From contig JANNSJ010000015.1 in NCBI GenBank assembly GCA_031402435.1, positions 132,288 through 196,287 on the forward strand: a stretch of DNA of 64,000 bases, written 5' to 3'. Numbering within the stretch: the stretch's first letter is position 1; each line of letters starts with the position of its first letter. The stretch comes from Bacteroidota bacterium (GTDB taxonomy: Bacteria > Bacteroidota > Ignavibacteria > UBA10030 > UBA6906). Shown piece after piece: positions 94 to 29,497 of the stretch. Below the pieces are notes generated by a model. The model was not told the origin of the DNA. It did not search any database and saw nothing but the letters and a program-made list of their open reading frames with translations. A program made the position numbers and the translations under genes.

Positions 94-1902
94 ATGCGAC
101 TAAAAACCTACTGCGTTCTCATAGTTCTGTTAATTGCATTCTCATGCAAAAAGGACGACCCAACTCAACCCGTTGTTCCAACCTTTCCACAAGTCCACAT
201 CGTTAGCCCAATCAACAATAGTTCAATTGGTGGGGGTCTTGTACCCGTACTTGTTGAAGCGACTGATGATAATGGCGTGGCAAAAGTTGAGGTGTATGTT
301 GACAGCCAGCTCGACACTACGTTGGCTGTCCCGCCATACAGATATCTTTGGGACACAGGAATCTACCCTGACAGCAGCCGCCATGCGATGTTTGCCAAGG
401 CATATGACACCGACAACAATGTAACGGGGTCTACTGTTGTAGTGACCACGGTGTACACTCTGCGTCCTTCGAACCTTCAAGTGACGACAGCAACTGATAC
501 GTCCGTGACTCTGCAATGGAGCGACAATTCGAGAGTCGAAACAGGATACGAGATAGAACAAAGTGGGAACAATGGACCCTTTACGAGGGTGAAACAGGTT
601 GCGGCGAACACGATTACTGCTTTCGTTGCTGATACCTTTGATGTTGGAACCACATACAGATTCCGATTACGAGCGGTGAAAGATTCAACTGTAAGTGGCT
701 ATTCGAACGAGCCATCTTTCACATTACAGTTCCTGGCCCCAAGCAACTTAAATGTCACCTCACTTAGCGGCGGTGAAGTGAGATTGTCGTGGGTAGATAA
801 TTCAGCATTCGAAACTCGATTCCTTGTTGACCGTGCAGTGAATGGCGGCCAATACGTAACAATAGCCGCTCTGCCTGCCGATGCAGTCACTTTCAACAAT
901 ACTTCTCTCGATACGAACAATACACTTTCATATAGAATTAAGGCAGAATCAAGACATAACTCTTCATACAGCAACACAATCTCAATAAGATACTTTCCCT
1001 ACTATGACATCAGAACGCTGATTGGGGGCACCTACTCTGTCAATTCGGTTGCCTTTAGTCCAGACGGTAACACGATTGCAAGTGGGAGCTACGACCAAAA
1101 CATCAAGCTCTGGCGGGTAAGCGACGGTACTCTCCTCAGAACTCTGGCAGGACATACCAGCAGTGTCAATTCGGTTACCTTTAGCCCAAACGGTAACACG
1201 GTTGCAAGCGGAAGCTTTGATAACAGTATCAAGATCTGGCAGGTAAGCGACGGCACTTTGATCAGGACACTGACAGGGCACACTAGCAGTGTCAGATCCG
1301 TTACCTTCAGCCCAGACGGTGCCATGCTTGCAAGTGGGAGCTACGACCACAGCATCAAGCTCTGGCGGGTAAGCGACGGGACTCTACTTAGGACGCTGAT
1401 TGGAGATGCCAACGGTGTCTATTCGGTTGCCTTTAGCCCAGACGGTAACACGGTTGCAAGTGGTGGCGATGATAGCAGCATCAAGTTCTGGCGGGTAAGC
1501 GACGGTGCTCTGCTCAGAACACTGACAGGACACACCGCCCTTGTCAATTCGGTTGCCTTTAGTCCAGATGGGAACACGATTGCAAGTGGAAGCGCTGATA
1601 ACAGGATCAAGTTATGGCGGGTAGGCGACGGCGCTCTGCTCAGAACACTGCCAGGGGGGGCCGCCTACACTGTCAATTCGGTTGCCTTTGGTCCGGTCGG
1701 TAACATATTTGCAAGTGGTAGCGTTGACACCAGACTCTGGTGGCTGAGCGACGGGACTCTGCTCAGGACACAGCCAGGTGGTACCTACGGCGTCAGTTCG
1801 GTTGCTTTTAGTCCAGACGGTTATACGTTTGCAAGTGGGGGTGTCCAGAACGGCATCAAACTCTGGCAATCAGCAGGCAGCATCTGGCAGGTTGTACCAT
1901 GA
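94..1902 (+). CDS. Lipoprotein-signal protein with Ig-like/FN3 domains followed by ~7 canonical WD40 repeats
   Basis: 602-aa ORF. N-terminal signal with lipobox-like AFSC. Repeated units GHTSSVNSVTFSPDGNTVASGSYDxSIKLWRVSDGTLLRTL typical of WD40 (GH...WD-like spacing, 42 aa). Upstream FN3-like beta-rich segments (LQWSDNS, LSWVDNS). Confidence 0.8.
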   Translation: MRLKTYCVLIVLLIAFSCKKDDPTQPVVPTFPQVHIVSPINNSSIGGGLVPVLVEATDDNGVAKVEVYVDSQLDTTLAVPPYRYLWDTGIYPDSSRHAMFAKAYDTDNNVTGSTVVVTTVYTLRPSNLQVTTATDTSVTLQWSDNSRVETGYEIEQSGNNGPFTRVKQVAANTITAFVADTFDVGTTYRFRLRAVKDSTVSGYSNEPSFTLQFLAPSNLNVTSLSGGEVRLSWVDNSAFETRFLVDRAVNGGQYVTIAALPADAVTFNNTSLDTNNTLSYRIKAESRHNSSYSNTISIRYFPYYDIRTLIGGTYSVNSVAFSPDGNTIASGSYDQNIKLWRVSDGTLLRTLAGHTSSVNSVTFSPNGNTVASGSFDNSIKIWQVSDGTLIRTLTGHTSSVRSVTFSPDGAMLASGSYDHSIKLWRVSDGTLLRTLIGDANGVYSVAFSPDGNTVASGGDDSSIKFWRVSDGALLRTLTGHTALVNSVAFSPDGNTIASGSADNRIKLWRVGDGALLRTLPGGAAYTVNSVAFGPVGNIFASGSVDTRLWWLSDGTLLRTQPGGTYGVSSVAFSPDGYTFASGGVQNGIKLWQSAGSIWQVVP

Positions 1903-2817: not shown

Positions 2818-2890
2818 GGGGCTGTAGCTCAGCTGGGAGAGCGCGTGAATGGCATTCACGAGGCCAGGGGTTCGATCCCCCTCAGCTCCA
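2818..2890 (+). tRNA. tRNA-Ala (anticodon GGC)
   Basis: Cloverleaf GGGGCTG-TA-GCTC..GAGC-G-CGTGA-ATGGCAT-TCACG-..-TTCGATC-..-CAGCTCC-A. G3:U70 wobble pair, the alanine identity element. CCA not encoded (followed by CAA). Confidence 0.85.
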
Positions 2891-3073
2891 CAAAAGGGAA
2901 CCAAGAGGTTCCCTTTTCTATTCATCCGCCGCACGCCGAGGTCAAAACACGACGCTCCGTGGAATGCTTTGCTCCTCACTCAAATCACCCAATCACCCCT
3001 GTTTGGAAATCAGCATGGAAATTGGTTAATTCATGCTGAAACATTTGCTTTGTCCCATTTCCTCTCGTTCTCC

Positions 3074-4399
3074 ATGGATCCGTTCTGGATCGAAGCAATC
3101 GGCGTACTCTTTCTCATCATCCTTATCGGGCTATTCTCGGCGTGCGAGGTGGCGGTCGTCTCGACGCGCAAGAGCCGCATGAAGGAACTGGCAGACGAGG
3201 GGAACCGCAGCGCCGCCATTGTCCTCCAATTCCAGAACAACCCCGAGCAGTTCCTTGCAACAATCCACGTGGGGGTGGTGTCATTCATGACTCTTGCCTC
3301 TGGGCTGGCCGGCATCATGGGGTTCCAGCACCTTGCACCGGCGCTGCAAGCGAGTGAGACACTATGGATCAGTGAGGGGAGCGGGTGGATCTCGCTGGTG
3401 ATCATGGTTGTCGGCATTGGCTCTCTGGTTGTGGTGCTTGGAGAGCTGGTTCCCAAGTCACTTGCGCTCCGCTTTGCCGAACCCGTGGCTCTTCGCGTTG
3501 CCTCGCCGCTCTCGCTGTTTGCCGCCGTCTTCCGTTATCCCGTCAAACTGCTCACGATGGCGAGCAACCTGTTCCTGATGCCGTTCAAGGACAGGACGTC
3601 GTTCATGGAATCGAGGATCTCCGAAGAGGAACTCAAGCTGATTCTCGTGGAGGGGACGAAGACCGGCGTCATCGACAAGACCGAGCATGAACTGATCGAG
3701 AGCATCTTCGAGTTCACCGATACGACGGCGAAGGAAGTCATGATTCCGCGTCCGGATGTTGTTGCCATCAACATCGATACGCCGCGGGATAAGGTGATCA
3801 AGATCGTGCTCGAAGAGGGCTACTCACGCATGCCGGTCTACAAGGATACGATCGATAATATTCTCGGTGTGGTGTACACCAAGGACCTGCTCGGACTGCT
3901 CGAATACCGCGATCTTATTATTATTCAGGATGTGATTCGTCCGGCGTACTTCATTCCCGAGACCAAGAAGATCAGCAAGCTCATGCGTGAGTTGCAGCAG
4001 AAGAAGCTGCACATGGCCATCATCATTGATGAGTTCGGCGGGACGGAAGGCATTGTGACCATGGAGGACATCCTCGAAGAGATCGTGGGGGAAATCCACG
4101 ATGAGTACGATGAAGTGCTGAAGGACGTGGAGTCCTCCGCTGATGGTTCGTTCCTTGTGAACGCCAGGATTTCCGTGAGCGACTTCAATGAGCGCTTTCA
4201 CACCTCCATCCCCGAAGCGGATGAGTACGACACACTCAGTGGTTACCTCAACAAGCTCTCCGGCCGCATCCCCGACCTCAACGAAGAACTCAAGACCGAG
4301 TCCCTTTCGTTCACCATTGTCAAGAAGAGCCAGCGCCGCATCCGGCTGGTGAAGGTGAAGAAGCTGACGGCGGTGGCGGTTCCGACGAGGCAGGGGTAG
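3074..4399 (+). CDS. CorC/HlyC (TlyC/CNNM) family membrane protein: DUF21 transmembrane domain + CBS pair + CorC_HlyC transporter-associated domain
   Basis: True start almost certainly MDPFWIEAIGVLFLII at 3074. The upstream part of ORF 2849..4399 reads through the tRNA-Ala. TM-rich N-terminus, CBS-like segments (VMIPRPDVVAI..., MAIIIDEFGGTEGIVTMEDILEEIVGEI), C-terminal FTIVKKSQRRIRLVKVKKL typical of CorC_HlyC. Confidence 0.85.
   Translation: MDPFWIEAIGVLFLIILIGLFSACEVAVVSTRKSRMKELADEGNRSAAIVLQFQNNPEQFLATIHVGVVSFMTLASGLAGIMGFQHLAPALQASETLWISEGSGWISLVIMVVGIGSLVVVLGELVPKSLALRFAEPVALRVASPLSLFAAVFRYPVKLLTMASNLFLMPFKDRTSFMESRISEEELKLILVEGTKTGVIDKTEHELIESIFEFTDTTAKEVMIPRPDVVAINIDTPRDKVIKIVLEEGYSRMPVYKDTIDNILGVVYTKDLLGLLEYRDLIIIQDVIRPAYFIPETKKISKLMRELQQKKLHMAIIIDEFGGTEGIVTMEDILEEIVGEIHDEYDEVLKDVESSADGSFLVNARISVSDFNERFHTSIPEADEYDTLSGYLNKLSGRIPDLNEELKTESLSFTIVKKSQRRIRLVKVKKLTAVAVPTRQG
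4306..4393 (+). repeat. Direct repeat copy 1 (native 3' end of the corC-family gene); further copies at 5180..5270 and 6282..6346
   Basis: ttcgttcaccattgtcaagaagagccagcgccgcatccggctggtgaaggtgaagaagctgacggcggtggcggttccgacgaggcag recurs ~90% identical at 5180-5270 and, 5'-truncated, at 6282-6346. Confidence 0.9.
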
Positions 4400-4513
4400 G
4401 TTGGAACAACAACGACATTCATGGAGTGAACACAGTAGTTATGCGGCATTGGTTTGCAAAGTAAATGAAAATCGGGGGAGTGAAAAAGGCGAGAATCTAT
4501 CGGAGGATGAAGG

Positions 4514-4798
4514 TCACTCGTAATGCGTCCACATTCGAATGACTTTAACGATTCGCTGCTCAGGAAGGATCTGGTAGACGAGTCGATGCTGAATGTTTAT
4601 CCGTCGAGAGTATGCACCAGCCAAATCTCCGACTAGCTTTTCATATGGAGGGGGTGTCTGAAAAGGACTGAGTTCGAGAACTTTGAGGAGCCGTTCAGCT
4701 TTTGGTTTTAGTCCTGTTGAAGCTAATTTCTTAGAGTCTTTCTGAGCTTGTTTTGTGAAAACAACAGTCCATCTCACCAAGGAAGCTCCGGTGAACAT
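4514..4798 (-). CDS. yoeB: YoeB/Txe-family type II toxin (RelE/ParE superfamily mRNA interferase)
   Basis: C-terminal half ...AYSRRINIQHRLVYQILPEQRIVKVIRMWTHYE aligns with E. coli YoeB (...WSRRITEEHRLVYAV...CRYHY). True start may be an internal GTG near 4777, abutting the antitoxin stop. Confidence 0.75.
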   Translation of the reverse strand: MFTGASLVRWTVVFTKQAQKDSKKLASTGLKPKAERLLKVLELSPFQTPPPYEKLVGDLAGAYSRRINIQHRLVYQILPEQRIVKVIRMWTHYE

Positions 4799-5010
4799 TT
4801 CTCAACAGGTGTTTTCAGTCCTCGTCGAATCGACTCGCGCATCTTGGGGATCGAAAGCAAATACAAGGTCTCTTGAATTGCACGCCAATCATCAAGTGAG
4901 AGGAGAACCCCTTTGTTTTTCTTCCCGATGATATGGACAGGCTCATGAGACTTTTCAGACTCGTCAAGAAGTCTCGAAAGGTTGGCTCGTGCTGCTGATA
5001 CTGTTTTCAT
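4774..5010 (-). CDS. yefM: YefM/Phd-family antitoxin
   Basis: MKTVSAARANLSRLLDESEKSHEPVHIIGKKNKGVLLSLDDWRAIQETLYLL matches the YefM pattern (SxSEARxNL....PVxIT..G..AVLLS.EEY..L.ET.YLL). Immediately upstream of and overlapping yoeB. ORF-track start 5040 is probably an N-terminal extension. Confidence 0.7.
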   Translation of the reverse strand: MKTVSAARANLSRLLDESEKSHEPVHIIGKKNKGVLLSLDDWRAIQETLYLLSIPKMRESIRRGLKTPVEKCSPELPW

Positions 5011-5314
5011 TAAATTCACCTTATTTGTTTCTATCTTCAAGATAGCTGTTTCTCAGAAGACTGTCAACGAGTTTCAATATCACGACGAAGGCAAACCAAC
5101 GCCGTATGACAACTGCAACAGCGACACTCACATTGTTTGGCAAGGCTATGTTGAACCGCAGTTTGCTCTAAGAATTGAGTTCGTTCACCATTGTCAAGAA
5201 GAGCCAGCGCCGCATCCGGTTGGCGAAGGTGAAGAAGCTGACGGCGGTTGCGGTGCCCACGAGGCAGACATAACCATTGAGACTAATCCTGGAGGGTGAG
5301 ACATAAAAGCAATT

Positions 5315-6283
5315 GTGTATGAAAGATATGGGCCGCCCGATGTTCTTCAATTGAAGGAGGTCGAAAAGCCCACGCCCAAAGACAATGAAGTCCTGATAAA
5401 AATACACGCGACAACGGTAACATCAGGGGACTGGAGGGTACGAAGTCTCAATGTGCCTGCCGGGTTCAGACTAATGTCGCGTCTGTTTTTTGGAGTCTCA
5501 AAACCAAAGCAGCCCATCCTCGGAACGGAACTCGCCGGTGAAATTGAGTCGGTCGGCAAGGACGTAAGCAAATTCAAAGTTGGTGACAAGGTGTTTGCAT
5601 TCAACGATGTGGGCATGGGTTGTTATGCGGAGTATAAATGCATGCCGGAAGCCGGAGCGGTGGCACTCAAGCCGCCCAATCTCACCTACGATGAAGCTGC
5701 CGCATTGTCGTTTGGTGGAACAACGGCGTTGAGTTTCTTCAAAAGAGGAAAACTTCAGAGCGGGGAAAAGGTGCTCGTCAATGGCGCTTCAGGCGGAGTA
5801 GGCACCGCTGCGGTACAGCTTGCCAAACACTTCGGGGCAGAGGTGACCGGAGTGTGCAGTACAACGAACATGGAATTGGTAAAATCGCTGGGTGCCAGTC
5901 ATGTCATTGACTATACCAAAGAGGACTTCACGCAGAATGGTGAAACGTATGGCGTCATTGTCGACACTGCCGGCACGGCGCCGTTCTCACGTTGCAAAGA
6001 TTCGCTAAAGCAAGGCGGGCGCCTTCTTCAAGTATTAGGCGGACTGCCGGACCTGCTTCAGGTTCCTTGGGTGTCGCTCACGAGCAGTAAGAAAGTGATC
6101 GCCGGGCCGGCACCGGGGCGTGCAGAGGATTTGCTTTTCCTTGCGAAGCTGGTTGAGGCGGGAGAATTCAAACCGGTCATTGACCGGTGCTATCCATTCG
6201 AGCAGATCGCTGAGGCTCACCGCTACGTTGATACCGGACGCAAGAGAGGAAATGTTATCATAACTCTGGGGCGTGATGGCTAG
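5315..6283 (+). CDS. Medium-chain dehydrogenase/reductase (zinc-binding ADH / NADPH:quinone oxidoreductase family)
   Basis: 322 aa. GroES-like N-domain (VLIKIHATTVTSGDWRV) and Rossmann motif NGASGGVGTAAVQLAK. Stop codon abuts repeat copy 3. Confidence 0.8.
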   Translation: MYERYGPPDVLQLKEVEKPTPKDNEVLIKIHATTVTSGDWRVRSLNVPAGFRLMSRLFFGVSKPKQPILGTELAGEIESVGKDVSKFKVGDKVFAFNDVGMGCYAEYKCMPEAGAVALKPPNLTYDEAAALSFGGTTALSFFKRGKLQSGEKVLVNGASGGVGTAAVQLAKHFGAEVTGVCSTTNMELVKSLGASHVIDYTKEDFTQNGETYGVIVDTAGTAPFSRCKDSLKQGGRLLQVLGGLPDLLQVPWVSLTSSKKVIAGPAPGRAEDLLFLAKLVEAGEFKPVIDRCYPFEQIAEAHRYVDTGRKRGNVIITLGRDG

Positions 6284-6430
6284 CGCCGCATCTGGCTGGT
6301 GAAGGTGAAGAAGCTGACGGTAGTGGCGGTGCCGACGAGGCAGACAAGTTGAAACAACGACATAATGTCGGCTATCCACCTATGATGGGCTGAACAACGA
6401 CACTCATATCGTATCAGAGGGATCTGTGAT

Positions 6431-7420
6431 ATGGCAACCGAAATCAAGACTTGGCAGATAGTAAACGGTAAGCTCACGGTGGTGAACTCTTCTCTGCCTG
6501 AGAACAATCGCAAAGAGAGGGAAGACCTTGAACGATGGATAAAGAGCAATCCCGAGATTCTCGGGGAAGACATCGCCGTATTTGGTGAGCAAATTCAAAC
6601 CAAATCTGGTCCACTGGACTTCCTCGGAATTGATAACAATGGCAATCTTGTCATCGTTGAACTGAAGCGTGACCACCTTCCGAGAGAGGTTCTCGCACAA
6701 GCCATAGACTACGCATCTGATGTTTCAACGTGGGAGATTGATAAGCTTGGTGAAATCTGTCAAGCATTCACTGGTCAGAACCTTGAAGACTTCTTTGCCC
6801 AAAAGTTTCCAGATACGTCTATCGAGGAATTGGTAATCAATCAAGCCCAACGACTTCTCCTTGTCGGGTTCTCAATTGAAGAATCTCTGAACCGAATGAT
6901 CGAGTGGCTTTCATCCAAATACAGCATTGGCATCAACGCTATCATTCTCAAGTATGTCAAGACATCGAACGGGGACGAGCTTCTTTCCCGCACAGTTATC
7001 ATCCCCGAAGAAGTTGAGCGAGAGAAGACAAACAAGAAGAAGTTTGTAATCGCAAAGTCAAACGAGCCTGGGAACTATGATGAAGCAACGGTGAAGGAGA
7101 AGCTGACTCAATACTTATCCCTGGATATGTATTCCGCCAAACGAATTAGAGACTACGTTCTTCCGATTCTACTCAAGAACGAGGTAACGACGAGAGAGGA
7201 AATGCGGAAAGAGTTTATTAAGATGGGCGGCGCAACCGAAAGTCAGGCGGGGTATTTTCTGGCTCTCATTTCCAGTCAACTTGGTTTCAAGTGGAACGAT
7301 TTTCTCAGGCAAGTAATCAAATATGAATTCCCGAACAACGAGTGGGAGAAAGACAACTTCACTATCCGAACAGAGTACCGTGACCTTGTCAAACAAGTCT
7401 TGAAGAATCTTGGAAAATAG
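6431..7420 (+). CDS. PD-(D/E)xK nuclease-superfamily protein (NucS/DUF91/Shedu-like restriction-endonuclease fold) with uncharacterised helical C-terminal domain
   Basis: N-terminal region DLERWIKSNPEILGEDIAVFGEQIQTKSGPLDFLGIDNNGNLVIVELKRD carries the D...(D/E)xK arrangement (D-x-n-ELK) typical of NucS-like/restriction-endonuclease-like domains. Confidence 0.6.
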   Translation: MATEIKTWQIVNGKLTVVNSSLPENNRKEREDLERWIKSNPEILGEDIAVFGEQIQTKSGPLDFLGIDNNGNLVIVELKRDHLPREVLAQAIDYASDVSTWEIDKLGEICQAFTGQNLEDFFAQKFPDTSIEELVINQAQRLLLVGFSIEESLNRMIEWLSSKYSIGINAIILKYVKTSNGDELLSRTVIIPEEVEREKTNKKKFVIAKSNEPGNYDEATVKEKLTQYLSLDMYSAKRIRDYVLPILLKNEVTTREEMRKEFIKMGGATESQAGYFLALISSQLGFKWNDFLRQVIKYEFPNNEWEKDNFTIRTEYRDLVKQVLKNLGK

Positions 7421-7606
7421 ACCGTGCCCAACAGCGACAAACTGCGTCGCCACTCAATTTGCAAGGCTCGGCCAAAACATGTTGGAGCAAGCTCAGAAAG
7501 AGTTTGCTTCACACAGCACTCCATTGTAAAGAGCGCGGAGTGCGGCTGCCGTAGTTTGCGGCACGCATCCTGCTCAACTGCTTTTCATAATAGAAAGATT
7601 GCTCGA

Positions 7607-8521
7607 ATGCCGTTGTACAAACTAGCACACAAGCAGCTTGAACTCATCAAAGAGAATTCATTCAGGCTGGAGAAGGAAGTGCAAGAGATTGTCGAGGCAA
7701 ATATGGACTCTCTTTTTGGGTCAAAACTTGTCAGGCATGAGTTTTCCCTTAGTGGATTGAGAATCGATACGCTTGGATACGACAAGGATGCTCAATCGTT
7801 TGTCATCATCGAGTACAAGAGGGGATCGAACTATTCGGTTGTGGACCAGGGAATGGCTTACCTCGGATTGATGCTCAACAACAAAGCTGAGTTCATTTTG
7901 GAATACAACGAGAGATGTAATGCTTCTCTCAAACGGGATGACGTTGACTGGTCTCAATCGAAGGTGATCTTCATCTCGCCCTCATTCACAAGCTTTCAGC
8001 TTGAGGCAATCAACTTCAAGGATTTGCCGATTGAGTTGTGGGAAGTAAAACGTTACTCAAACAACACTGTCAGGTTCGACCAACACAAGCCAACGGCTAC
8101 GGTTGCTTCCATTAAGACTGTGTCAAAGAAGAGCGAGGTAGTCGAAGCAATTAACAGGGAGGTAAAGACCTACACCGAAGAAGCTCATTTGAAAGTAGCT
8201 CAGCCGACCATTGCTGAAATGTACACTAGATACAAGGAGCTTGTGTTAGCTATTAGCCCTGAGTTGTCTGTCAAACCGATGAAATGGTACATTGCCTTCC
8301 GTGCGAAGACGAATATTACCGATGTTGTTGTTCTCAAGAAGTCACTTAAGATTTTCATCAACTTGCCGAAAGGTAAATTGGAGGACCCAAAAAAGCTCGT
8401 CCGCGATGTTTCAAAAGTCGGGCACTGGGGCAACGGCGACTATCAGATTCAGATCAGTACGGACGATGAATTAGAGTATATCATCTCCCTAGTCCGGCAG
8501 GCGTACAAACTGAACGAATAG
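7607..8521 (+). CDS. Second PD-(D/E)xK nuclease-like protein (paralog-like N-domain) with C-terminal domain containing a GHWGNGDY motif (DUF5655-like?)
   Basis: Likely start MPLYKLAHK (ATG 7607); ORF-track start 7424 is an extension. EKEVQEIVEANMDSLFGSKLVRHEFSLSGLRIDTLGYDKDAQSFVIIEYKRG repeats the nuclease-core pattern of the upstream gene. Confidence 0.55.
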   Translation: MPLYKLAHKQLELIKENSFRLEKEVQEIVEANMDSLFGSKLVRHEFSLSGLRIDTLGYDKDAQSFVIIEYKRGSNYSVVDQGMAYLGLMLNNKAEFILEYNERCNASLKRDDVDWSQSKVIFISPSFTSFQLEAINFKDLPIELWEVKRYSNNTVRFDQHKPTATVASIKTVSKKSEVVEAINREVKTYTEEAHLKVAQPTIAEMYTRYKELVLAISPELSVKPMKWYIAFRAKTNITDVVVLKKSLKIFINLPKGKLEDPKKLVRDVSKVGHWGNGDYQIQISTDDELEYIISLVRQAYKLNE

Positions 8522-8610
8522 CTGTGACCAAGCGGCGCTCTTTCATTTGATAAGGCTCTATTGGTAAATGTCCAACGCCCCAATAAAGTAGAGTCGATCT
8601 TGACGCCACA

Positions 8611-8667
8611 ACCCCGCTTTAGTCAAAGACACCTGGGAAATCGGCGAGGCGTACGATTCATTCATCG
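8611..8667 (+). repeat. Partial duplicate of the 5' end of the downstream SAM-methyltransferase gene (second copy 9985..10042)
   Basis: agtcaaagacacctgggaaatcggcgaggcgtacgattcattcatcg vs agtcatggacacatgggaaatcggagaggcgtacgattcattcatcg (4 mismatches in 47 nt). Encodes DTWEIGEAYDSFI in both. Confidence 0.85.
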
Positions 8668-8687
8668 TCAGGGGTCAGGCTATAGAT

Positions 8688-9242
8688 ATGGAGGAAACAC
8701 GCATGCGTAAAATCGTATCTGCTTCAGTGGCGATCATGGTGACGGGCTGGTTGACGGCTTTCGGAGTCCCATGCTACGCGATACCTTTGCCTTTGGAATC
8801 CCAGGATCAAGCCGGGCAAGAACCAGTTGTCGGTAAGGAATTTCAAGCCATGATGGCTAAGGTCGATACCGCCCAGCTTGAACTCCAAAACGGGAGGGTG
8901 GAAGCCTTCAAGGCACTCTGGTCTCATGCTGACGATGTTACCCTTTCGGGAGGGTTCGGCGGTGCAATTGAAAAGGGATGGAGAAATGTCAGCAAGCGGC
9001 TCGATTGGGTTGGCGGGCAGTTTTCGAAGGGTACGAATACCATCGAGCGGATTGTGGTAAATGCAAATAGTGACCTTGCCTATGTGGTGCAGATCGAGCA
9101 CATCCGTTTTCACGTTCCAGGTCAGGCAAAAGAGTCGGCCCGCGACTACAGGGTAACGATGGTGTTCCGACGCGAGTCTGAGGGTTGGCGTATCGTCCAT
9201 CGCCATGCAGATTCGCAGATGATGAAACAGGCGCCGAAGTAA
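8688..9242 (+). CDS. Secreted NTF2-like (SnoaL/DUF4440-type) protein
   Basis: Signal peptide (IVSASVAIMVTGWLTAFG). Motifs FKALWSHADDVTLSGGFGG...YRVTMVFRRESEGWRIVHRHAD fit the nuclear-transport-factor-2-like fold family. Confidence 0.55.
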   Translation: MEETRMRKIVSASVAIMVTGWLTAFGVPCYAIPLPLESQDQAGQEPVVGKEFQAMMAKVDTAQLELQNGRVEAFKALWSHADDVTLSGGFGGAIEKGWRNVSKRLDWVGGQFSKGTNTIERIVVNANSDLAYVVQIEHIRFHVPGQAKESARDYRVTMVFRRESEGWRIVHRHADSQMMKQAPK

Positions 9243-9251
9243 CTGTCGTCC

Positions 9252-9956
9252 TTGCCATTCATCGGCTCCATATGGTTCGCCACGCTTTTGATATTTTCCT
9301 TACGGTCGGAATGTTCTGCTCAAGAGGAGGACTACGGAATCGGAATAATCATTCCTCCGGGCGGCGGTAATATGCACGCTGTCATCTACTCCAAGCCTTA
9401 TGTTGGTTCCGATACCATAGCCACTCTTACGAAATGGGAGTACACCTTTCACGGCCACAACGAGAAAGTGCGTCCCTACCTCGCAGGGTTTCACAGGTAT
9501 GACTATTGGGGAGTACCCATTCTGTCCATAAGCCACGACTCCTCTTGGGCAGAGGTCTTCGTTGCATCCTCCGATTGGACAACAAAAACGAAAGGGTGGA
9601 TCAACCTCAAAATTCCCAACACTACCGTTCGTGTCTGGGCAGACTTTCTGCGGACGCAATCAATGGTCTTGAACGGTAATAATCCTCCACGGTTCTACTC
9701 CAAGCCAAACAAGAGTGCCCCGCTCAGCATGAACCTGTTTCGCTTTCGCAGTCTGGACGAATTTAGTTACATTCTCAAACCCATTCGACGAGAAGGGCGT
9801 TGGTTACTCGTTGAGCTTCACACTCCATTTCTCCCCTGTGCCGATGAAGATGCGGTCGTGCACGAGCCCGGCCTTCACCCGCGAACAACCAGAGTGTGGA
9901 TTGAATACATAGACGAGCGAGGGCGACCGCTCGCTCAAGCTCCAATGATGTGCTGA
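9252..9956 (+). CDS. Hypothetical secreted protein
   Basis: 234 aa, N-terminal signal peptide (IWFATLLIFSLRSECSAQ). No recognisable motif. Lies between the two methyltransferase-5'-end repeat copies. Confidence 0.5.
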   Translation: MPFIGSIWFATLLIFSLRSECSAQEEDYGIGIIIPPGGGNMHAVIYSKPYVGSDTIATLTKWEYTFHGHNEKVRPYLAGFHRYDYWGVPILSISHDSSWAEVFVASSDWTTKTKGWINLKIPNTTVRVWADFLRTQSMVLNGNNPPRFYSKPNKSAPLSMNLFRFRSLDEFSYILKPIRREGRWLLVELHTPFLPCADEDAVVHEPGLHPRTTRVWIEYIDERGRPLAQAPMMC

Positions 9957-9975
9957 CAGCAAAGAGTTCACAATC

Positions 9976-10782
9976 TTGAAACCAGACCCTCACTCAGTCA
10001 TGGACACATGGGAAATCGGAGAGGCGTACGATTCATTCATCGGACGCTGGAGCTTGCCGGTAGCGAGGGAATTTGTGCAATGGCTTGCAGCTTCTCCTAA
10101 GAGCAAATGGCTTGATGTCGGCTGCGGTACCGGAGCGCTGAGTCGAACCATCGTTGAGCTGGTTGATCCTGCAGAAGTACATGGAATCGATTCGGCACAA
10201 GGGTTCATCTCGTTTGCACAGGAGCGAACCAGTGATCGTCGGGTAACCTTTGCCGTGGGCGATGCGGAATCCCTTCAGGTGCAAGCGGGCGTGTACAACG
10301 CAGCAGTCTCGGCTCTTATGCTCAACTTTGTTTCTCGTCCTGATAAGATCGTCTCAGAGATGCAGCGTGTGGTAAAGCCCGGTGGGGTTGTAGCCTTCTA
10401 TGTTTGGGACTACGCGGAACGAATGCAGTTGCTGCGTTACTTTTGGGATGTGGCGGTGTCTCTCAATCCGGCAGTCTCCGCTTTGGATGAGGGAAAGAGA
10501 TTTCCGCTTTGCAATCCCGACCGGCTCAACGATCTCTTCGTTGCTCAGGGTCTGCACAACATCGAGGTGAGAGCGATTGAGGTGCCTACTCAGTTCTCTG
10601 ACTTTGATGATTACTGGAAACCATTTCTTGCCGGTCAGGGACCTGCGCCGGGTTACGTTGCTTCTCTTACTCCACAAAAGCAGGTAGCAATAAGAGAACG
10701 CCTTCGCACCACTCTGCCTATTGCGACTGACGGAACGATCAGCCTGGTGGCGCGTGCATGGGCTGTGAAAGGCAACGCGTAA
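9976..10782 (+). CDS. Class I SAM-dependent methyltransferase (Methyltransf_11-like)
   Basis: LDVGCGTGALSRTIVEL (motif I), VKPGGVVAFYVWDY (post-II). Confidence 0.8.
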   Translation: MKPDPHSVMDTWEIGEAYDSFIGRWSLPVAREFVQWLAASPKSKWLDVGCGTGALSRTIVELVDPAEVHGIDSAQGFISFAQERTSDRRVTFAVGDAESLQVQAGVYNAAVSALMLNFVSRPDKIVSEMQRVVKPGGVVAFYVWDYAERMQLLRYFWDVAVSLNPAVSALDEGKRFPLCNPDRLNDLFVAQGLHNIEVRAIEVPTQFSDFDDYWKPFLAGQGPAPGYVASLTPQKQVAIRERLRTTLPIATDGTISLVARAWAVKGNA

Positions 10783-10835
10783 ACTACGAACCCGCAATGA
10801 CGTAAAAGATCGAAATGCAGAAAGAGAAGGAGTAA

Positions 10836-11501
10836 ATGAAGATCAACGCAATACTTTTCGGAGCCACCGGTATGGTGGGAGAGGGAGTCCTCATCGAAGC
10901 TCTCGCGCATCAGCACGTGGAATCAGTCCTGGTGATCGGTAGAAGGTCATGCAACAGGACTCATCCCAAACTCAAAGAACTGATCCATACTGACTTCTTT
11001 GACTACTTGAACATCGAAGCGCAACTCAAGGGATTTAATGCGTGCTTTTTCTGCCTCGGATCTTCCTCGTTGGGAATGAATGAACAGGATTACACAAGGT
11101 TGACGTACGATCTCACGATGCAGGCAGCAAGGACACTCTCCAGACTTAATCCTGATATGACGTTCTGTTATGTGTCGGGGACAGGAACCAATGAACATGG
11201 CCGCAGTATGTGGGCGCGGGTGAAGGGAAGAACGGAGGGCCATCTGGCAAAGCTGCCATTCAAAGCGGCGTACTCGTTCAGGCCGGGACTGATGAAGCCC
11301 AACAAGGGACAGAAGAATGTCAAAGCGATTTTCAAGATGGCGGGATGGTCGTATCCTCTGTGGAAGTTCTTGTTCCCCGGGGGCGTGTGCAAGTTGGAGG
11401 ATCTGGGCCTTGCGATGATTCACACTGTTGAGATGGGCTACTTAAAGCAGATTCTTGAGAATAGAGACATCACTCAGGTTGCAAAGGGTTCGCACACATG
11501 A
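10836..11501 (+). CDS. NAD(P)H-binding domain protein (atypical SDR/NmrA-like)
   Basis: N-terminal Rossmann ILFGATGMVGEGVL. 221 aa. Confidence 0.7.
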   Translation: MKINAILFGATGMVGEGVLIEALAHQHVESVLVIGRRSCNRTHPKLKELIHTDFFDYLNIEAQLKGFNACFFCLGSSSLGMNEQDYTRLTYDLTMQAARTLSRLNPDMTFCYVSGTGTNEHGRSMWARVKGRTEGHLAKLPFKAAYSFRPGLMKPNKGQKNVKAIFKMAGWSYPLWKFLFPGGVCKLEDLGLAMIHTVEMGYLKQILENRDITQVAKGSHT

Positions 11502-11713
11502 GCCGTGCATTCATGAAAGAGAGCGATGATCAATGGTTGCATGACGTTGCTCCAACCATGAGTGCGCTGCTTACGTACCTGACACGGGAGAACAACGGCA
11601 TCAGAGTCTTTGAGGAAAAGAGATCCATCGCTCCGGATGGCCTTGAGGTGTATGAAATGAGCAACGGTTTATCCTACTCAAAAGATGATGAAGGTCAATG
11701 GCGGGTTGTGTGA
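11498..11713 (+). CDS. Small hypothetical protein (71 aa)
   Basis: ATGA start/stop overlap with upstream gene. No recognisable motif. Confidence 0.3.
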   Translation: MSRAFMKESDDQWLHDVAPTMSALLTYLTRENNGIRVFEEKRSIAPDGLEVYEMSNGLSYSKDDEGQWRVV

Positions 11714-11966
11714 AGAACAACCCAACGGTAGCGCCGACCTGCCTTGCCGGACATGTTTCTCAATGCAGGCAGGCATTCTTGTCGGCAGCGAGATAACTCT
11801 AAGCGGCAAACAAGAATGCTTGCCCCACCAGTTATTTCCTGTAAACAAATACGATCTCGACGTTGTCATTGTAAACTGCCCCACGTTTTTGCCTGAATCC
11901 TTTCCACGTTGAGCACGTAAGAGACGGAAGTTGTTCCATTCCTATCTCACTCACAAGGATTCATTC

Positions 11967-13184
11967 ATGAAAGTACTCTTCCTGATACTCAGCCTGTGCC
12001 TGGGCGATGTGCAATCCTCCTCAAGTCAATCAGAGGTGACAGACTTCGAAAGCCTGCCGGCCGTACAATGGAAATTCCGCACGAATGCCCCTATACTCGC
12101 CTCTCCTGTCATTCATGGGAACCTTGCGTACGTCGGCAGTGGAGATAGCGTTCTCTACGCCATGGATACAGAAACGGGTAAGGGCCGTTGGACATTTAGA
12201 ATCCAAGGGCCGATTCTGTCGACCGTGTGCATAGGAGGGGACCAACTGTTCCTTGTGGCGGGGGATGGCTCATGCTATTCGCTTGACAAGAACTCCGGCA
12301 AAATGCTATGGAGATTCAAGACACGAGGAGAGAAGGTCTATCAATACTACGGGTACGCGGACTATCATCATTCGTCCCCCGTTTTGTACAAATCTATCGT
12401 GTATTTTGGATCAGGAGACGGCAATGTCTACGCGCTGAAATCCAACAACGGCAAGGTGCTCTGGAGTTTCAAAACGGGGGATGTCGTCCACTCTTCACCT
12501 GTAGTTGGCAATGATAAGCTGTTCATCGGGTCTTTCGACGGACATGTGTACGCTCTTGATTGCCAGAGCGGAGCGTTGGTTTGGAAATTCAAATCGGTTG
12601 GCCATCGCTTTTTCCCAAAAGGAGAGATGCAGGGTTCTCCTGTCACAGCAAACGGTCTTGTCTACATCGGTAGTAGGGATTACAATCTTTATGCAATAGA
12701 TGCTGAAAAGGGATATTGCCACTGGAATAAGCAATTTCCGAAGGGCTGGGCAATGGCACTATCTGTCAGGGATACTGTCCTCTACGTGGGTACGTCGGAT
12801 GATGATCTTATGATTGCAATGGATGGAAGGAGTGGCGCGGAGTTGTGGCGTACCGATATGAAATTCAATATGTTCGGCACGTGTACGTTTACATCCTCCA
12901 TGATGTATTTCGGGACTCTTCTGGGTAAAATCCACGGATTGGATCTGCAAACAGGCGCGATACGATGGACGTTCAATACTGATGGATACAACGAAAATCA
13001 TTCGAAGTACTTTCCATCAGAAAGCGTGATAGTGAAGAATGACTTCTATGCAAGCCTTTCGTGGCCGGATGGCTACATTACGGCGTTACATGAGCTGGGA
13101 GCAATCTTCTCGAAGCCTGCAATCTCGGGGAACCTCATAATCGTCAGCAGTACCGATGGAACGGTGTACTGTCTTCGAAAGTAG
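11967..13184 (+). CDS. PQQ-like beta-propeller repeat protein (BamB-like), secreted
   Basis: Likely start MKVLFLILSLCLG (signal). Repeated GxGDGxVYALDxxSGKxLWxFK units. Confidence 0.8.
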   Translation: MKVLFLILSLCLGDVQSSSSQSEVTDFESLPAVQWKFRTNAPILASPVIHGNLAYVGSGDSVLYAMDTETGKGRWTFRIQGPILSTVCIGGDQLFLVAGDGSCYSLDKNSGKMLWRFKTRGEKVYQYYGYADYHHSSPVLYKSIVYFGSGDGNVYALKSNNGKVLWSFKTGDVVHSSPVVGNDKLFIGSFDGHVYALDCQSGALVWKFKSVGHRFFPKGEMQGSPVTANGLVYIGSRDYNLYAIDAEKGYCHWNKQFPKGWAMALSVRDTVLYVGTSDDDLMIAMDGRSGAELWRTDMKFNMFGTCTFTSSMMYFGTLLGKIHGLDLQTGAIRWTFNTDGYNENHSKYFPSESVIVKNDFYASLSWPDGYITALHELGAIFSKPAISGNLIIVSSTDGTVYCLRK

Positions 13185-13212
13185 ATCTTGGGGGACGCTA
13201 CGGTATGAAACA

Positions 13213-13240
13213 CAAGCGGCGCCTCGCTCGGCGCCGCTTG
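13213..13240. terminator. Bidirectional rho-independent terminator between convergent genes
   Basis: Perfect 11-bp stem caagcggcgcc/ggcgccgcttg with 6-nt loop, T/A-rich flanks, between the stop of 11967..13184 (+) and the stop of 13269..16112 (-). Confidence 0.7.
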
Positions 13241-13268
13241 CAAATATATCTCTCTTCCAACTCCACAT

Positions 13269-27023: not shown

Positions 27024-27091
27024 CCATTTTCACTAAAGTTTCCCACCAAAACCGTAGCCCTCATAGCTCAACAGTATAGAGCACAGGTTTC
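27024..27091 (+). repeat. Truncated duplicate of tRNA-Arg 5' half plus ~30 nt of its upstream region (partner copy 29392..29459)
   Basis: ccattttcactaaagtttcccaccaaaaccgtagccctcatagctcaacagtatagagcacaggtttc vs ccattttcactaaatttttccaccaaaaccgtagccctcatagctcaacaggatagagcacaggtttc. Confidence 0.85.
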
Positions 27092-29332: not shown

Positions 29333-29424
29333 AAGTGCCTTGAGCACCTCCAGGATTTTTCCCCGCAGACTGAAGTGCTTGCTTGCAACCTCCATTTTCA
29401 CTAAATTTTTCCACCAAAACCGTA

Positions 29425-29497
29425 GCCCTCATAGCTCAACAGGATAGAGCACAGGTTTCCTAAACCTGGAATCGAGGTTCGAGTCCCCGTGAGGGCA
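29425..29497 (+). tRNA. tRNA-Arg (anticodon CCU)
   Basis: GCCCTCA-TA-GCTC..GAGC-A-CAGGT-TTCCTAA-ACCTG-..-TTCGAGT-..-TGAGGGC-A. CCA not encoded. Confidence 0.85.

What the first reader, a model, noticed from the sequence alone, without database searches (positions are those of the whole stretch)
8611..10042. Duplicated 5' end of the SAM-methyltransferase gene brackets a 1.3 kb segment encoding two secreted proteins
~50-65 nt encoding the MTase N-terminus (DTWEIGEAYDSFI) plus ~15 nt of its leader recur 1.37 kb upstream (8611-8667 vs 9985-10042, 4 mismatches in the 47-nt core). The intervening DNA carries an NTF2-like secreted protein and an unknown secreted protein.

This is the mirror image of the corC 3' repeats. 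Together they subdivide the whole corC-to-MTase interval (4400-9975) into at least four modules with target-derived boundaries.
Basis: seen in the sequence. Interest (0 to 1): 0.5.

Follow-up and report, generated by a model that had tools for sequence, protein, structure and literature searches.

The report
Leftover stump of a second methyltransferase cassette
The repeat is real. It is most likely the 70-base stump of a second, slightly different copy of a mobile methyltransferase gene, left in a decaying integron-like gene-cassette island of an Ignavibacteriota genome, so it looks like a recombination scar rather than the footprint of a new insertion system.

Summary
Window 8621-8667 and 9996-10042 match at 43 of 47 bases; with the leader, about 71 bases match at 83% with one indel. 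No shuffle reproduces this. Two independent short-read assemblies carry the same arrangement.

The methyltransferase (MTase) is not a fixed chromosomal target. It is an accessory gene inside a roughly 9 kb island (4400-13268) between corC and an M12 protease gene. In a sister species the same position holds a canonical integron-type attC cassette array. The unknown secreted protein sits in attC-bearing arrays elsewhere, in one case as a cassette bounded on both sides. An 85%-identical MTase allele appears to be bounded by GTT cores.

No intact attC survives in the window's island, only fragments. No recombinase gene was recognised among the larger ORFs of the 64 kb.

The upstream copy encodes the "SVKDTWEIG" form seen in the other allele, and its two private coding changes are silent. 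It therefore looks like the 5' stump of a second MTase cassette, cut at codon 23 by a non-homologous junction.

The corC-tail copies (4 of 5 changes silent) and a duplicated tRNA-Arg 5' half look like scars of the same kind. The best model is displacement by recombination that is homologous on one side and illegitimate on the other. Interest is moderate to low.

The parts
8598..8667 (+). Stump: the truncated 5' end (leader plus about 23 codons, with a 1-nt insertion) of a second, divergent MTase cassette allele. It encodes ..V-K-D-T-W-E-I-G-E-A-Y-D-S-F-I.
   Evidence: It is 88.6% identical to L082 and 83.1% to the resident copy. The K-type N-terminus matches P0002.
9973..10042 (+). The matching leader and first codons of the intact MTase gene.
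   Evidence: It is 91.4% identical to L082 over this block.
9976..10782 (+). Intact class I SAM-dependent methyltransferase (TTG start at 9976, or ATG at 10000). It is an accessory cassette gene.
   Evidence: Pfam Methyltransf_11/25. The closest relative is 85% identical and the rest are about 60%, from other phyla.
8668..9972 (+). The bracketed block. It holds the SnoaL_3/NTF2-like gene (8688-9242) and the unknown signal-peptide protein (9252-9956), fused with no attC between them (9-nt and 19-nt gaps).
   Evidence: Homologues of the unknown protein lie in attC arrays in L203 (attC on both sides) and L207.
8516..8567 (+). Fragment of an attC left half (inner box GGCGCTCTTTCATTTGATAAGG), directly upstream of the stump and after the second NucS-like gene.
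   Evidence: An nhmmer profile built only from L213/L203 attC left halves gives E=8.4e-5 and 19 bits; the best of 20 shuffles was 8.9 bits. Alignment; blast match.
4306..4393 (+). T1: the functional 3' tail of corC.
5180..5267 (+). T2: a displaced corC tail, 94% identical to T1, with 4 of 5 substitutions synonymous. It is followed by its own in-frame stop codon.
6283..6343 (+). T3: a shorter displaced corC tail that abuts the stop codon of the dehydrogenase gene. It is followed by a stop codon and a decayed copy of the sequence found downstream of corC.
4433..4445 (+). Conserved core CAGTAGTTATGCG, 34 nt after the corC stop. It is the presumed first cassette insertion point (attI-like, G|TTATGC). 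It is also the left arm of the 25-nt inverted repeat around the toxin-antitoxin module.
   Evidence: The same core lies after corC in the sister species (L213, L220), and the sequences diverge after it. Inverted repeat 4433-4457 / 5091-5115. The reconstituted junction folds as a hairpin, z=-2.3.
5109..5154 (+). Fragment of an attC left half at the right end of the toxin-antitoxin module, just upstream of T2.
   Evidence: nhmmer E=0.047, 10.3 bits, above all 20 shuffles; alignment.
11714..11833 (+). Hairpin element ending in ..CCACCAGTT. It is homologous to the element just after the MTase stop in L082, and homology stops at GTT.
   Evidence: 29 of 30 identical, E=2e-9; fold z=-2.5.
4400..13268 (.). 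The whole variable island between corC and the M12/Reprolysin protease gene that carries a type IX secretion sorting tail (13269-16112, minus strand).
   Evidence: Related genomes go from corC into the glycosyltransferase cluster. The sister species L213 has a different, attC-bearing array between corC and the same protease.
27024..27091 (+). A scar of the same style: the displaced leader plus 5' half of tRNA-Arg(CCT), ending in the anticodon loop. Its partner is 29392-29459. The pair brackets one adenylate-cyclase/TPR gene.

Best explanation
What is shown. The region 4400-13268 is a lineage-specific island of accessory genes. It sits where a sister species carries a canonical integron-type attC cassette array without an adjacent integrase. 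At least two of the window's island genes, the unknown secreted protein and the MTase, behave as attC-bounded cassettes in other genomes. In this genome the attC sites are reduced to fragments.

What is inferred. The 8598-8667 copy is the 5' stump of a second MTase cassette of a different allele. It still lies directly downstream of the attC fragment of the preceding cassette. At 8667/8668 it is joined, without homology, to a block that reads SnoaL - unknown protein - intact MTase.

Most likely mechanism, also inferred. DNA from a related strain's array recombined with this array. The shared MTase cassette or its downstream flank served as the homologous anchor on the right. An illegitimate join formed on the left, inside the recipient's own MTase, about 70 nt from its start. 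The old 5' end was therefore pushed upstream and kept as a dead stump.

The corC-tail copies T2 and T3 are the mirror image, with the anchor in corC and the old tails pushed downstream. The tRNA-Arg half copy fits the same logic. Only short stumps (47-88 nt) persist, because longer direct repeats would either have allowed ordinary two-sided homologous replacement or would later be deleted by homologous recombination.
For: Island and cassette context.
- In many relatives the corC stop is followed within about 100 nt by the glycosyltransferase cluster, which lies 12 kb away in the window.
- L213 (corC 83% identical at the protein level) has corC, then 11 small ORFs, all but one on the same strand, then the same M12 protease. 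At least two of its intergenic regions are canonical attC sites (R'' GCATAAC or GCCTAAC, R' GTTAGGC or GTTATGC, 11 of 11 inner pairs, fold z=-3.35); the others were read by eye only.
- A core CAGTAGTTATGCG is conserved after corC in both species.
- Homologues of the unknown protein lie in attC arrays in L203 (attC on both sides) and L207.
- The L082 MTase allele appears to be bounded by GTT cores on both sides; the upstream one was read by eye.
- attC left-half fragments lie just upstream of the stump (E=8.4e-5) and just upstream of T2 (E=0.047).

The stump as a separate allele.
- It encodes K where the resident gene has M, as P0002 does.
- Its two private changes in the 47-nt coding core are synonymous (AAG>AAA, GGA>GGC).
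- It is 88.6% identical to L082 but 83.1% to the resident copy.

The corC copies as separate alleles.
- 4 of 5 T1/T2 differences are synonymous; P=0.012 if substitutions were random.

No dedicated machinery.
- No ORF scanned against Pfam across the 64 kb matches an integrase or transposase family.
- No inverted repeats lie at the junctions.
- Only one of four junctions has G|TT.
- None of 78 related species' corC loci shows corC-tail repeats, nor does L213.

Precedent.
- Strings of displaced gene ends at Rhs and T6SS loci, with one-sided homologous plus illegitimate recombination proposed as the cause (PMC5361080).
Against: - No donor-like or intermediate arrangement was found. There is no intact NucS-like gene followed by a K-type MTase, and no SnoaL-unknown-MTase block without a stump. 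The direction and number of events are therefore inferred.
- With only three alleles and 70 nt, the tree cannot be rooted. L082 sits near the centre, with the resident 91.4% and the stump 88.6% identical to it, so 'separate allele' rests on very few sites.
- Four scars that all lie 47-88 nt from a gene end, one ending exactly in a tRNA anticodon loop, is also what a site-specific system would produce.
- Microhomology can be judged at only one junction (GCTAG versus GCCAG, at T3).
- A simple internal deletion between two MTase cassettes already present in one array would give the same stump without any gene transfer.
- Whether this organism can take up DNA naturally was not tested.
Confidence: 0.5

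Rival explanations
1. Site-specific integration of modules that lack their own integrase. Each module (toxin-antitoxin, dehydrogenase, SnoaL plus unknown protein, adenylate cyclase) would carry an attP-like copy of 50-90 nt of the target gene's end. A tyrosine recombinase encoded elsewhere in the genome would insert it, rebuilding the target gene and leaving the old end as the far repeat. This resembles the accretion of cis-mobilisable elements at the 3' ends of genes or at tRNA genes.
For: Three different gene ends within 25 kb show the same repeat-bracketed layout. The repeats are of att-like size. Each corC-tail copy keeps an in-frame stop codon. The tRNA-Arg repeat ends inside the anticodon loop, a classic crossover position. 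Silent-site-biased divergence would also be expected for an attP that has to encode the tail of the target gene.
Against: No recombinase gene was recognised in the 64 kb, nor within 10 kb either side of corC in L213. The three corC copies have different left boundaries (4306 register versus 4333 register) and different right ends. The dehydrogenase stop codon abuts T3, leaving no room for arm sites. There are no inverted repeats or shared core at the MTase junctions. The MTase 'target' is itself mobile cargo. No relative shows corC-tail repeats. Two of the three sites would need an attP that carries the 5' end and leader of the target, which as far as I know is rare.
Confidence: 0.2
2. Internal deletion within a single array. 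The array once held two divergent MTase cassettes, as paralogous cassettes are common in chromosomal arrays. One illegitimate deletion then removed everything from codon 23 of the first copy to just upstream of the SnoaL gene. No gene transfer would be involved.
For: A single event explains the stump, its correct position after an attC fragment, and its allelic divergence. attC sites are also missing between SnoaL, the unknown protein and the MTase, so deletions have clearly happened here.
Against: This does not explain the corC-tail copies or the tRNA-Arg half copy, because those sequences are not cassettes and should occur only once. No 3' remnant of a second MTase is left anywhere in the window.
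Confidence: 0.17
3. Duplication in place. Replication template switching or a staggered-break insertion copied about 70 nt of the resident MTase on either side of the inserted DNA, and the upstream copy has since decayed.
For: The layout (repeat, insert, repeat) is what template switching gives. The stump does carry a 1-nt insertion that breaks its frame.
Against: The stump shares K (AAA/AAG) and ACC with the L082 allele rather than with the resident copy. Its private core changes are synonymous, which is not expected for a dead copy. For corC, 4 of 5 T1/T2 differences are synonymous, P=0.012. A 17% divergence would require great age, yet the leader is still alignable.
Confidence: 0.1
4. Assembly artefact: alternative strain alleles were stitched together in series.
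For: The window comes from a metagenome-assembled genome. Logan contigs break near the repeats. The T1-toxin/antitoxin-T2 stretch has no independent confirmation.
Against: Two independent short-read contigs from two runs cross the stump, its junction and T3 at 100% identity.
Confidence: 0.03

Closest known systems
Clusters of attC sites lacking an integron integrase (CALIN) and sedentary chromosomal integron cassette arrays (IntegronFinder papers; PMC9024848)
   Same: A mostly one-directional string of small accessory ORFs sits at a fixed chromosomal spot. A toxin-antitoxin module lies in the opposite orientation. The same genes occur as attC-bounded cassettes in other genomes. The sister species has canonical attC sites at the same locus. 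No adjacent integrase is seen. Integrons are already reported in Ignavibacteriae, and CALINs are regarded as degraded integrons.
   Different: The window's own island has no intact attC, only left-half fragments and a conserved first core. Several cassettes are fused. It also contains stumps of neighbouring genes, which integron recombination at G|TT does not produce.
Orphan-module 'displacement' arrays at Rhs, contact-dependent inhibition and T6SS effector-immunity loci (Kirchberger 2017, PMC5361080; Jackson 2009, cited there)
   Same: Successive incoming modules push the older gene ends away from a conserved anchor gene. The displaced pieces keep a short stretch of the conserved sequence and come from different alleles. 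The proposed cause is recombination that is homologous on one side and illegitimate on the other.
   Different: Here the anchors are a housekeeping transporter gene (corC), a tRNA gene and a cassette-borne MTase, not toxin genes. There are no toxin/immunity pairs whose retention is selected. The MTase and tRNA cases are displaced at the 5' end rather than the 3' end.
Tandem accretion of integrative elements and cis-mobilisable elements at gene 3' ends or tRNA genes, with att repeats (from my own knowledge; not checked in a paper here)
   Same: Direct repeats of 50-90 nt of the target gene's end separate successive cargo modules, and the target gene is kept intact.
   Different: No integrase, excisionase or their remnants are present. 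The repeat boundaries are not in register. The modules are 0.8-2.3 kb and hold one or two genes. Two of the three sites duplicate the 5' end.
Homology-facilitated illegitimate recombination in naturally transformable bacteria and in conjugation (PMC3240628; de Vries and Wackernagel, cited in PMC5361080)
   Same: One homologous anchor plus one non-homologous joint inserts a few kb of foreign DNA next to a conserved sequence.
   Different: That is an experimental mechanism, and nothing here demonstrates it. From memory, the reported events usually delete recipient DNA rather than leave a short duplicate of the anchor's edge.

Membership tests
Integron cassette array / CALIN | Two or more attC sites (R''-L''...L'-R' imperfect palindromes with a GTT core) separating the ORFs | tested here: not met
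   A geometric attC scan finds canonical sites in L213, L203 and L207 but none in the window island. The four hits elsewhere in the window are at shuffle level. The island's intergenic regions do not fold as attC hairpins (z from -2.06 to +0.8). Only left-half fragments remain, at 8528-8557 (E=8.4e-5) and 5109-5154 (E=0.047).
Integron cassette array / CALIN | The same locus is an attC array in close relatives (homology by position) | tested here: met
   L213: corC, then an attC-separated ORF array, then the M12 protease. A shared core CAGTAGTTATGCG follows corC in both species.
Integron cassette array / CALIN | The genes occur elsewhere as single-ORF cassettes bounded by attC | tested here: met
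   Homologues of the unknown protein lie in attC arrays in L203 (attC on both sides) and L207. The homology block of the L082 MTase allele ends at GTT, and a GTT read by eye lies 28 nt before its start. The other island genes were not tested.
Complete integron | An adjacent integron integrase gene (intI) | tested here: not met
   Pfam scans of 40 ORFs covering the larger genes across the 64 kb, but not every ORF, found no tyrosine recombinase. None is called within 10 kb either side of corC in L213. The rest of the genome could not be read.
Integrative element with att duplication (accretion of cis-mobilisable elements) | A recombinase gene in the element or array | tested here: not met
Integrative element with att duplication (accretion of cis-mobilisable elements) | Repeat copies share a common core and in-register boundaries | tested here: not met
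   The left ends of the corC copies differ by 26 nt and their right ends also differ. The MTase junctions share no core or inverted repeat.
Integrative element with att duplication (accretion of cis-mobilisable elements) | Empty site or excised circle in the population | not testable with these tools
   Only two Logan contigs carry these genes, and both show the occupied arrangement.
Displacement array formed by one-sided homologous plus illegitimate recombination | Displaced fragments keep a short piece of the conserved anchor and derive from different alleles | tested here: met
   T1/T2: 4 of 5 differences synonymous, P=0.012. The stump is K-type like P0002 and its private core changes are synonymous. 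The numbers are small.
Displacement array formed by one-sided homologous plus illegitimate recombination | Non-homologous junction with at most microhomology | tested here: inconclusive
   Junctions at 8667/8668, 6282/6283, 5179/5180 and 27091/27092 show an abrupt loss of similarity. Only T3 allows a comparison (GCTAG versus GCCAG). The donor sequences are unknown.
Transposon target-site duplication | Transposase, terminal inverted repeats, and identical short duplications of fixed length | tested here: not met
   There is no transposase. The repeats are 47-88 nt and 6-17% diverged. No terminal inverted repeats flank 8668-9972.

The most novel reading that the evidence does not exclude
The gene-end blocks would be working recombination sites rather than scars. 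In this lineage the attC sites have decayed, and cassettes would instead move as units that each carry 50-90 nt of the neighbouring gene's end (the corC tail, the MTase head, the tRNA-Arg 5' half up to the anticodon loop). They would be inserted either by an unlinked recombinase or by RecA-dependent single crossover of circularised cassettes. That would amount to a cassette system without attC and without a linked integrase, which rebuilds its target gene at each insertion, including at 5' ends.
Probability: 0.12. Interest if true: 0.7.

Novelty: new member of a known kind. Interest (0 to 1): 0.33.

Why it matters
If the main reading is right, this finding is mostly housekeeping. It explains a puzzling repeat as a pseudogene stump. 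It also identifies the corC-to-protease interval of this Ignavibacteriota clade as an integron-type cassette hotspot that is intact in one species and decaying in another.

It has modest value as a natural record of how such arrays are remodelled once attC sites are lost. Remodelling appears to proceed by displacement that leaves short stumps of whichever gene served as the homologous anchor. The same logic was proposed for Rhs and T6SS orphan arrays, but here it involves a housekeeping gene, a tRNA gene and a cassette.

Three scars within 25 kb also give a concrete, testable case for asking whether one-sided homologous recombination really builds accessory islands in uncultured bacteria.

Tried and rejected
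- Metagenome DNA scan with the corC-tail 20-mer GGNGAAGGTGAAGAAGCTGA. 
- Exact-protein look-ups of the MTase (260 aa), P0001, the toxin and the antitoxin. Nothing is on record.
- Strain-level relatives of corC. None is closer than 85% at the protein level, so no intermediate arrangement could be found.
- Conserved adjacency of the unknown protein and an MTase. In L207/L208 the homologue is followed by a methyltransferase, but that gene gave no tblastn match to the window MTase at E below 1e-5. Rejected.
- Intact attC sites in the window. Folding, an inverted-repeat search and a purpose-written scan were all negative. A first, stricter version of the scan missed known sites and was replaced.
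- Integron-integrase recombination at secondary sites as the source of the stumps. Only one of four junctions (5179/5180, G|TTCG) has G|TT at the boundary, which is about chance level. Rejected as a general explanation.
- Transposon, miniature-element or target-site-duplication reading. Only the toxin-antitoxin module has 25-nt inverted repeats, and these contain the attC-type core. The reconstituted junction folds like an attC.
- Rooting the three MTase 5' alleles. This is impossible with three sequences of 70 nt. My first identity table was off by one base and misaligned; the blast figures were used instead.
- Rfam search. It found only the two tRNA genes.
- Sigma-70 promoter scan at 8400-10200. 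Nothing was found.
Full report
**1. The observation**

Window 8621-8667 and 9996-10042 are a 47-nt direct repeat with 43 of 47 bases identical, 1375 nt apart. A 40-nt core with up to three mismatches occurs only at these two places in 64 kb and in none of 100 shuffles. Similarity continues more weakly upstream to 8597/9973, giving 83.1% over 71 nt with one single-base indel.

The downstream copy is the start of an intact class I SAM methyltransferase (MTase) at 9976/10000-10782. The upstream copy reads AAAGAC where the gene reads ATGGAC. Between the copies lie a SnoaL_3 (NTF2-like) gene at 8688-9242 and a 234-aa gene with no Pfam match at 9252-9956. Both begin with a hydrophobic, signal-peptide-like segment, judged by eye.

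Two Logan short-read contigs from different sequencing runs match the window at 100%. L081 covers 5349-10053 and L222 covers 6228-9136. Both cross the upstream copy and its junction, so the arrangement is real.

A third case, which the finding does not mention, lies at 27024-27091 versus 29392-29459 (96% identical). It comprises the leader plus the 5' half of tRNA-Arg(CCT), ends in the anticodon loop, and brackets a single adenylate-cyclase/TPR gene.

**2. What the surroundings are**

The corC protein places the window in Ignavibacteriota; the best species-level relatives are 82-85% identical.

In many relatives the corC stop is followed within about 100 nt by the homologue of the glycosyltransferase gene that sits at 16345 in the window. 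None of 80 related loci carries any of the genes between 4400 and 13268 next to corC. That interval is therefore a lineage-specific island, and the MTase is part of its cargo rather than a conserved chromosomal target.

The most informative relative is a sister species (corC protein P0137, 83% identical, found on 12 contigs). In L213, corC is followed by about 8 kb holding eleven small accessory ORFs, all but one on the plus strand. These are followed by the homologue, on the opposite strand, of the window's M12/Reprolysin protease at 13269-16112.

Several intergenic regions of L213 look like textbook integron attC sites, although only two were confirmed by the scan. Their R'' box is GCATAAC or GCCTAAC, in one case overlapping the stop codon. 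Their R' box is GTTAGGC, GTTATGC or GTTAGCT. L''/L' pairing is 11 of 11, and the fold z-score is -3.35.

Thirty-four nucleotides after the corC stop in the window (and 45 to 80 in the sister species), both carry the same core CAGTAGTTATGCG, after which the sequences diverge. This is what a first insertion point (G|TTATGC) would look like. No integrase is called within 10 kb either side of corC in L213, and Pfam scans of 40 ORFs covering the larger genes of the 64-kb window found none. Integrons have been reported in Ignavibacteriae, and attC clusters without an integrase (CALINs) are regarded as degraded integrons (PMC9024848).

**3. The island genes as cassettes**

The unknown secreted protein belongs to a rare family with only 12 hits. 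Its homologues sit in unrelated contexts. In L203 the homologue is flanked by canonical attC sites on both sides, and in L207 it lies in an array that has canonical attC sites further upstream. The methyltransferase that follows it in L207 gave no tblastn match to the window MTase at E below 1e-5, so that adjacency carries no weight.

The only close MTase relative, P0002, is 85% identical and lies on a 993-nt JGI contig, L082. Its homology to the window runs from about 20-28 nt upstream of the TTG start to about 30 nt past the stop. It then resumes at window 11804-11833 (29 of 30 identical, E=2e-9) and ends in both sequences exactly at ...CCACCAGTT. Upstream of the L082 gene...GAGACGTTATGAGG lies 28 nt before the start. 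The MTase is therefore itself a cassette bounded by GTT cores. Relative to L082, the window has an extra NAD-binding gene and a 71-aa ORF between the MTase and its terminal hairpin.

**4. The state of the array in the window**

No intact attC survives in the window's island. A geometric scan that recovers sites in L213, L203 and L207 finds none there, and its hits elsewhere in the window are at shuffle level. The island's intergenic regions do not fold as attC hairpins.

Fragments do remain. A profile built only from attC left halves of L213 and L203 hits window 8528-8557 (E=8.4e-5, 19 bits) and 5109-5154 (E=0.047, 10.3 bits). The best score in 20 shuffles was 8.9 bits (alignment). The short motif AACARCGACA occurs seven times against 0.3 expected, and five of these occurrences lie at island boundaries.

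Several cassettes are fused. Only 9 nt separate SnoaL from the unknown protein, and only 19 nt separate the latter's stop from the TTG at 9976 (43 nt to the ATG at 10000).

The toxin-antitoxin module lies in the opposite orientation and is flanked by 25-nt inverted repeats at 4433-4457 and 5091-5115 that contain the core. When the two ends are joined as they would be in a circular cassette, they fold as a 20-bp hairpin with z=-2.3.

**5. What the upstream MTase copy is**

It lies directly downstream of the attC fragment that follows the second NucS-like gene, which is where a cassette should start. It encodes ...V-K-D-T-W-E-I-G-E-A-Y-D-S-F-I. P0002 has the same K (SVKDTWEIG), whereas the resident gene has M.

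Within the 47-nt coding core, the stump's two private differences (AAG>AAA and GGA>GGC) are both synonymous. It shares ACC with L082, where the resident copy has ACA. Over the 70-nt block, the stump is 88.6% identical to L082 and 83.1% to the resident copy, and the resident copy is 91.4% identical to L082.

The copy carries a 1-nt insertion in the N-terminal extension and stops abruptly at 8667, after codon 23. No other piece of a second MTase exists anywhere in the window. The junctions have no inverted repeats or shared core apart from a small hairpin at 8556-8588.

The plain description is therefore a 5' stump of a second, divergent MTase cassette, joined without homology to a block that reads SnoaL - unknown protein - intact MTase.

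The corC copies tell the same story with slightly better statistics. T1 and T2 differ at five positions in 88 nt. Four of these are synonymous and one changes V to A. If substitutions were random, the probability of this would be 0.012. The two copies therefore diverged as parts of working corC genes in different lineages. Each copy keeps its own in-frame stop codon. Their left boundaries differ (4306 register versus 4333 register), and T3 abuts the stop codon of the dehydrogenase gene.

**6. Mechanism**

Shown:
- The site is a cassette hotspot.
- At least two of the island genes, the unknown protein and the MTase, behave as cassettes elsewhere.
- The attC sites are degraded.
- The stumps derive from other alleles.
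- The junctions are non-homologous.
- No recombinase was found in the parts of the window that were scanned.

Inferred: each stump is a displacement scar. DNA from a related strain's island recombined through a homologous anchor on one side. The anchor was the MTase cassette or its flank for the stump at 8598, corC for T2 and T3, and tRNA-Arg/proS for the tRNA half copy. On the other side an illegitimate joint landed a few tens of bases inside the recipient's copy of the anchor, so the old gene end was pushed away and kept.

The uniformly short length of the stumps (47-88 nt) has a simple explanation. Longer overlaps would have supported ordinary two-sided replacement, or would later be removed by recombination between the repeats.

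This is the logic proposed for strings of orphan gene ends at Rhs and T6SS loci, where homology-facilitated illegitimate recombination was suggested (PMC5361080; see also PMC3240628).

The absence of corC-tail repeats in 78 other species' corC loci and in L213 argues for rare accidents rather than a dedicated system.

I put this reading at about 0.5.

**7. Rivals**

(a) Site-specific insertion of integrase-less modules that carry an att-like copy of the target end, catalysed by a recombinase encoded elsewhere: about 0.2. In its favour are the att-like sizes, the retained stop codons and the anticodon-loop boundary. Against it are the lack of any recombinase, the out-of-register boundaries, the lack of room for arm sites at the dehydrogenase/T3 junction, the mobile nature of the 'target', and the need for attP sites that carry 5' ends.

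(b) A single illegitimate deletion between two MTase cassettes already present in one array: about 0.17. It explains the stump but not the corC or tRNA copies.

(c) Duplication in place by template switching, followed by decay: about 0.1. The silent-site bias and the character states shared with L082 argue against it.

(d) Assembly artefact: about 0.03, and excluded for this stump by two independent contigs.

Integron-integrase action at secondary sites was considered and set aside, because only one of four junctions has G|TT at the boundary.

**8. Comparison with known systems, and novelty**

By position and gene content the island is a decayed integron-type array, most like a CALIN. It fails the defining attC test in this genome, however, so I describe it as derived from such an array rather than as a member. 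The stumps behave like the displaced ends in Rhs and T6SS orphan arrays, but they involve a housekeeping gene, a tRNA gene and a cassette, and two of them are displaced at the 5' end.

Neither component is a new kind of system. The finding is a new example of known processes in a little-studied phylum.

The reading that would be truly new is that the gene-end blocks are working recombination sites of a cassette system without attC and without a linked integrase. The evidence does not exclude it, but I rate it at about 0.12.

**9. Limits**

- No strain-level relatives or intermediates were available.
- The only metagenome DNA scan was lost to an over-permissive pattern.
- The allele argument for the MTase stump rests on a handful of sites.
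- The rest of the source genome could not be read.
- The T1-toxin/antitoxin-T2 stretch lacks independent assembly support.

Noticed in passing
window 27024-27091 and 29392-29459: The 33-nt leader plus the first 35 nt of tRNA-Arg(CCT), up to the anticodon loop, is duplicated 2.37 kb upstream at 96% identity. The pair brackets a single adenylate-cyclase/TPR gene (27287-29332) with no recombinase. In relatives, nadD and tRNA-Arg are 0.1-1.2 kb apart with different content between them (L010, L001).
   Followed up: partly
window 4433-4457 and 5091-5115: 25-nt inverted repeats (84% complementary) flank the opposite-strand YoeB/ParE-like toxin and Phd/YefM antitoxin pair. The left arm contains the core CAGTAGTTATGCG that is conserved after corC in the sister species. 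Joining the two ends as in a circular cassette gives a 20-bp hairpin (z=-2.3).
   Followed up: partly
window 4408, 5117, 6353, 6393, 7430: The motif AACARCGACA occurs 7 times in 64 kb against 0.3 expected. Five occurrences, all on the plus strand, lie at module boundaries of the island. The motif aligns with the L''/inner-box part of attC left halves from L213 and L203.
   Followed up: partly
window 10783-11833: Relative to the 85% MTase allele in L082, the window carries an extra NAD(P)-binding gene (10836-11501) and a 71-aa ORF (11498-11713) between the MTase stop and its terminal hairpin. Sequences resembling the start of the L082 attC occur on both sides of this insert (about 10783-10810 and 11714-11735).
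   Followed up: partly
window 11739-11773: Logan contigs L223 and L224, from two sequencing runs, lack these 35 nt but otherwise match the window at 99.9-100%. The short form would read GCCGAC-CATTCTT-GTCGGC. This is either a strain polymorphism or an assembly difference inside the hairpin element.
   Followed up: no
L213 11380-11414 versus L220: A 35-nt indel flanked by CCAG lies between the corC stop and the conserved core in two populations of the sister species.
   Followed up: no
window 975-1867: Six to seven tandem 126-nt (42-codon) repeats at 64-85% identity lie in a coding region, consistent with a WD40-like or beta-propeller repeat protein.
   Followed up: no
window 6431-7420 and 7604-8521: Two adjacent cassette-like genes each have a weak NucS_C / PD-(D/E)XK-like N-terminal match. 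The second also has a DUF5655 domain. They might be defence-related nucleases, but their function was not examined.
   Followed up: no
L203 5600-8871; L207 260-1010: These are well-preserved integron-type cassette arrays in metagenome contigs, with attC sites of 103-210 nt that share an inner box GCGCTC.CTCATTTG..AAGG with the Ignavibacteriota sites. No integrase lies on the contigs.
   Followed up: partly
window 2818-2891: tRNA-Ala(GGC) lies directly upstream of corC, and the long 2849-4399 ORF overlaps it. The real corC start is probably near 3074.
   Followed up: no
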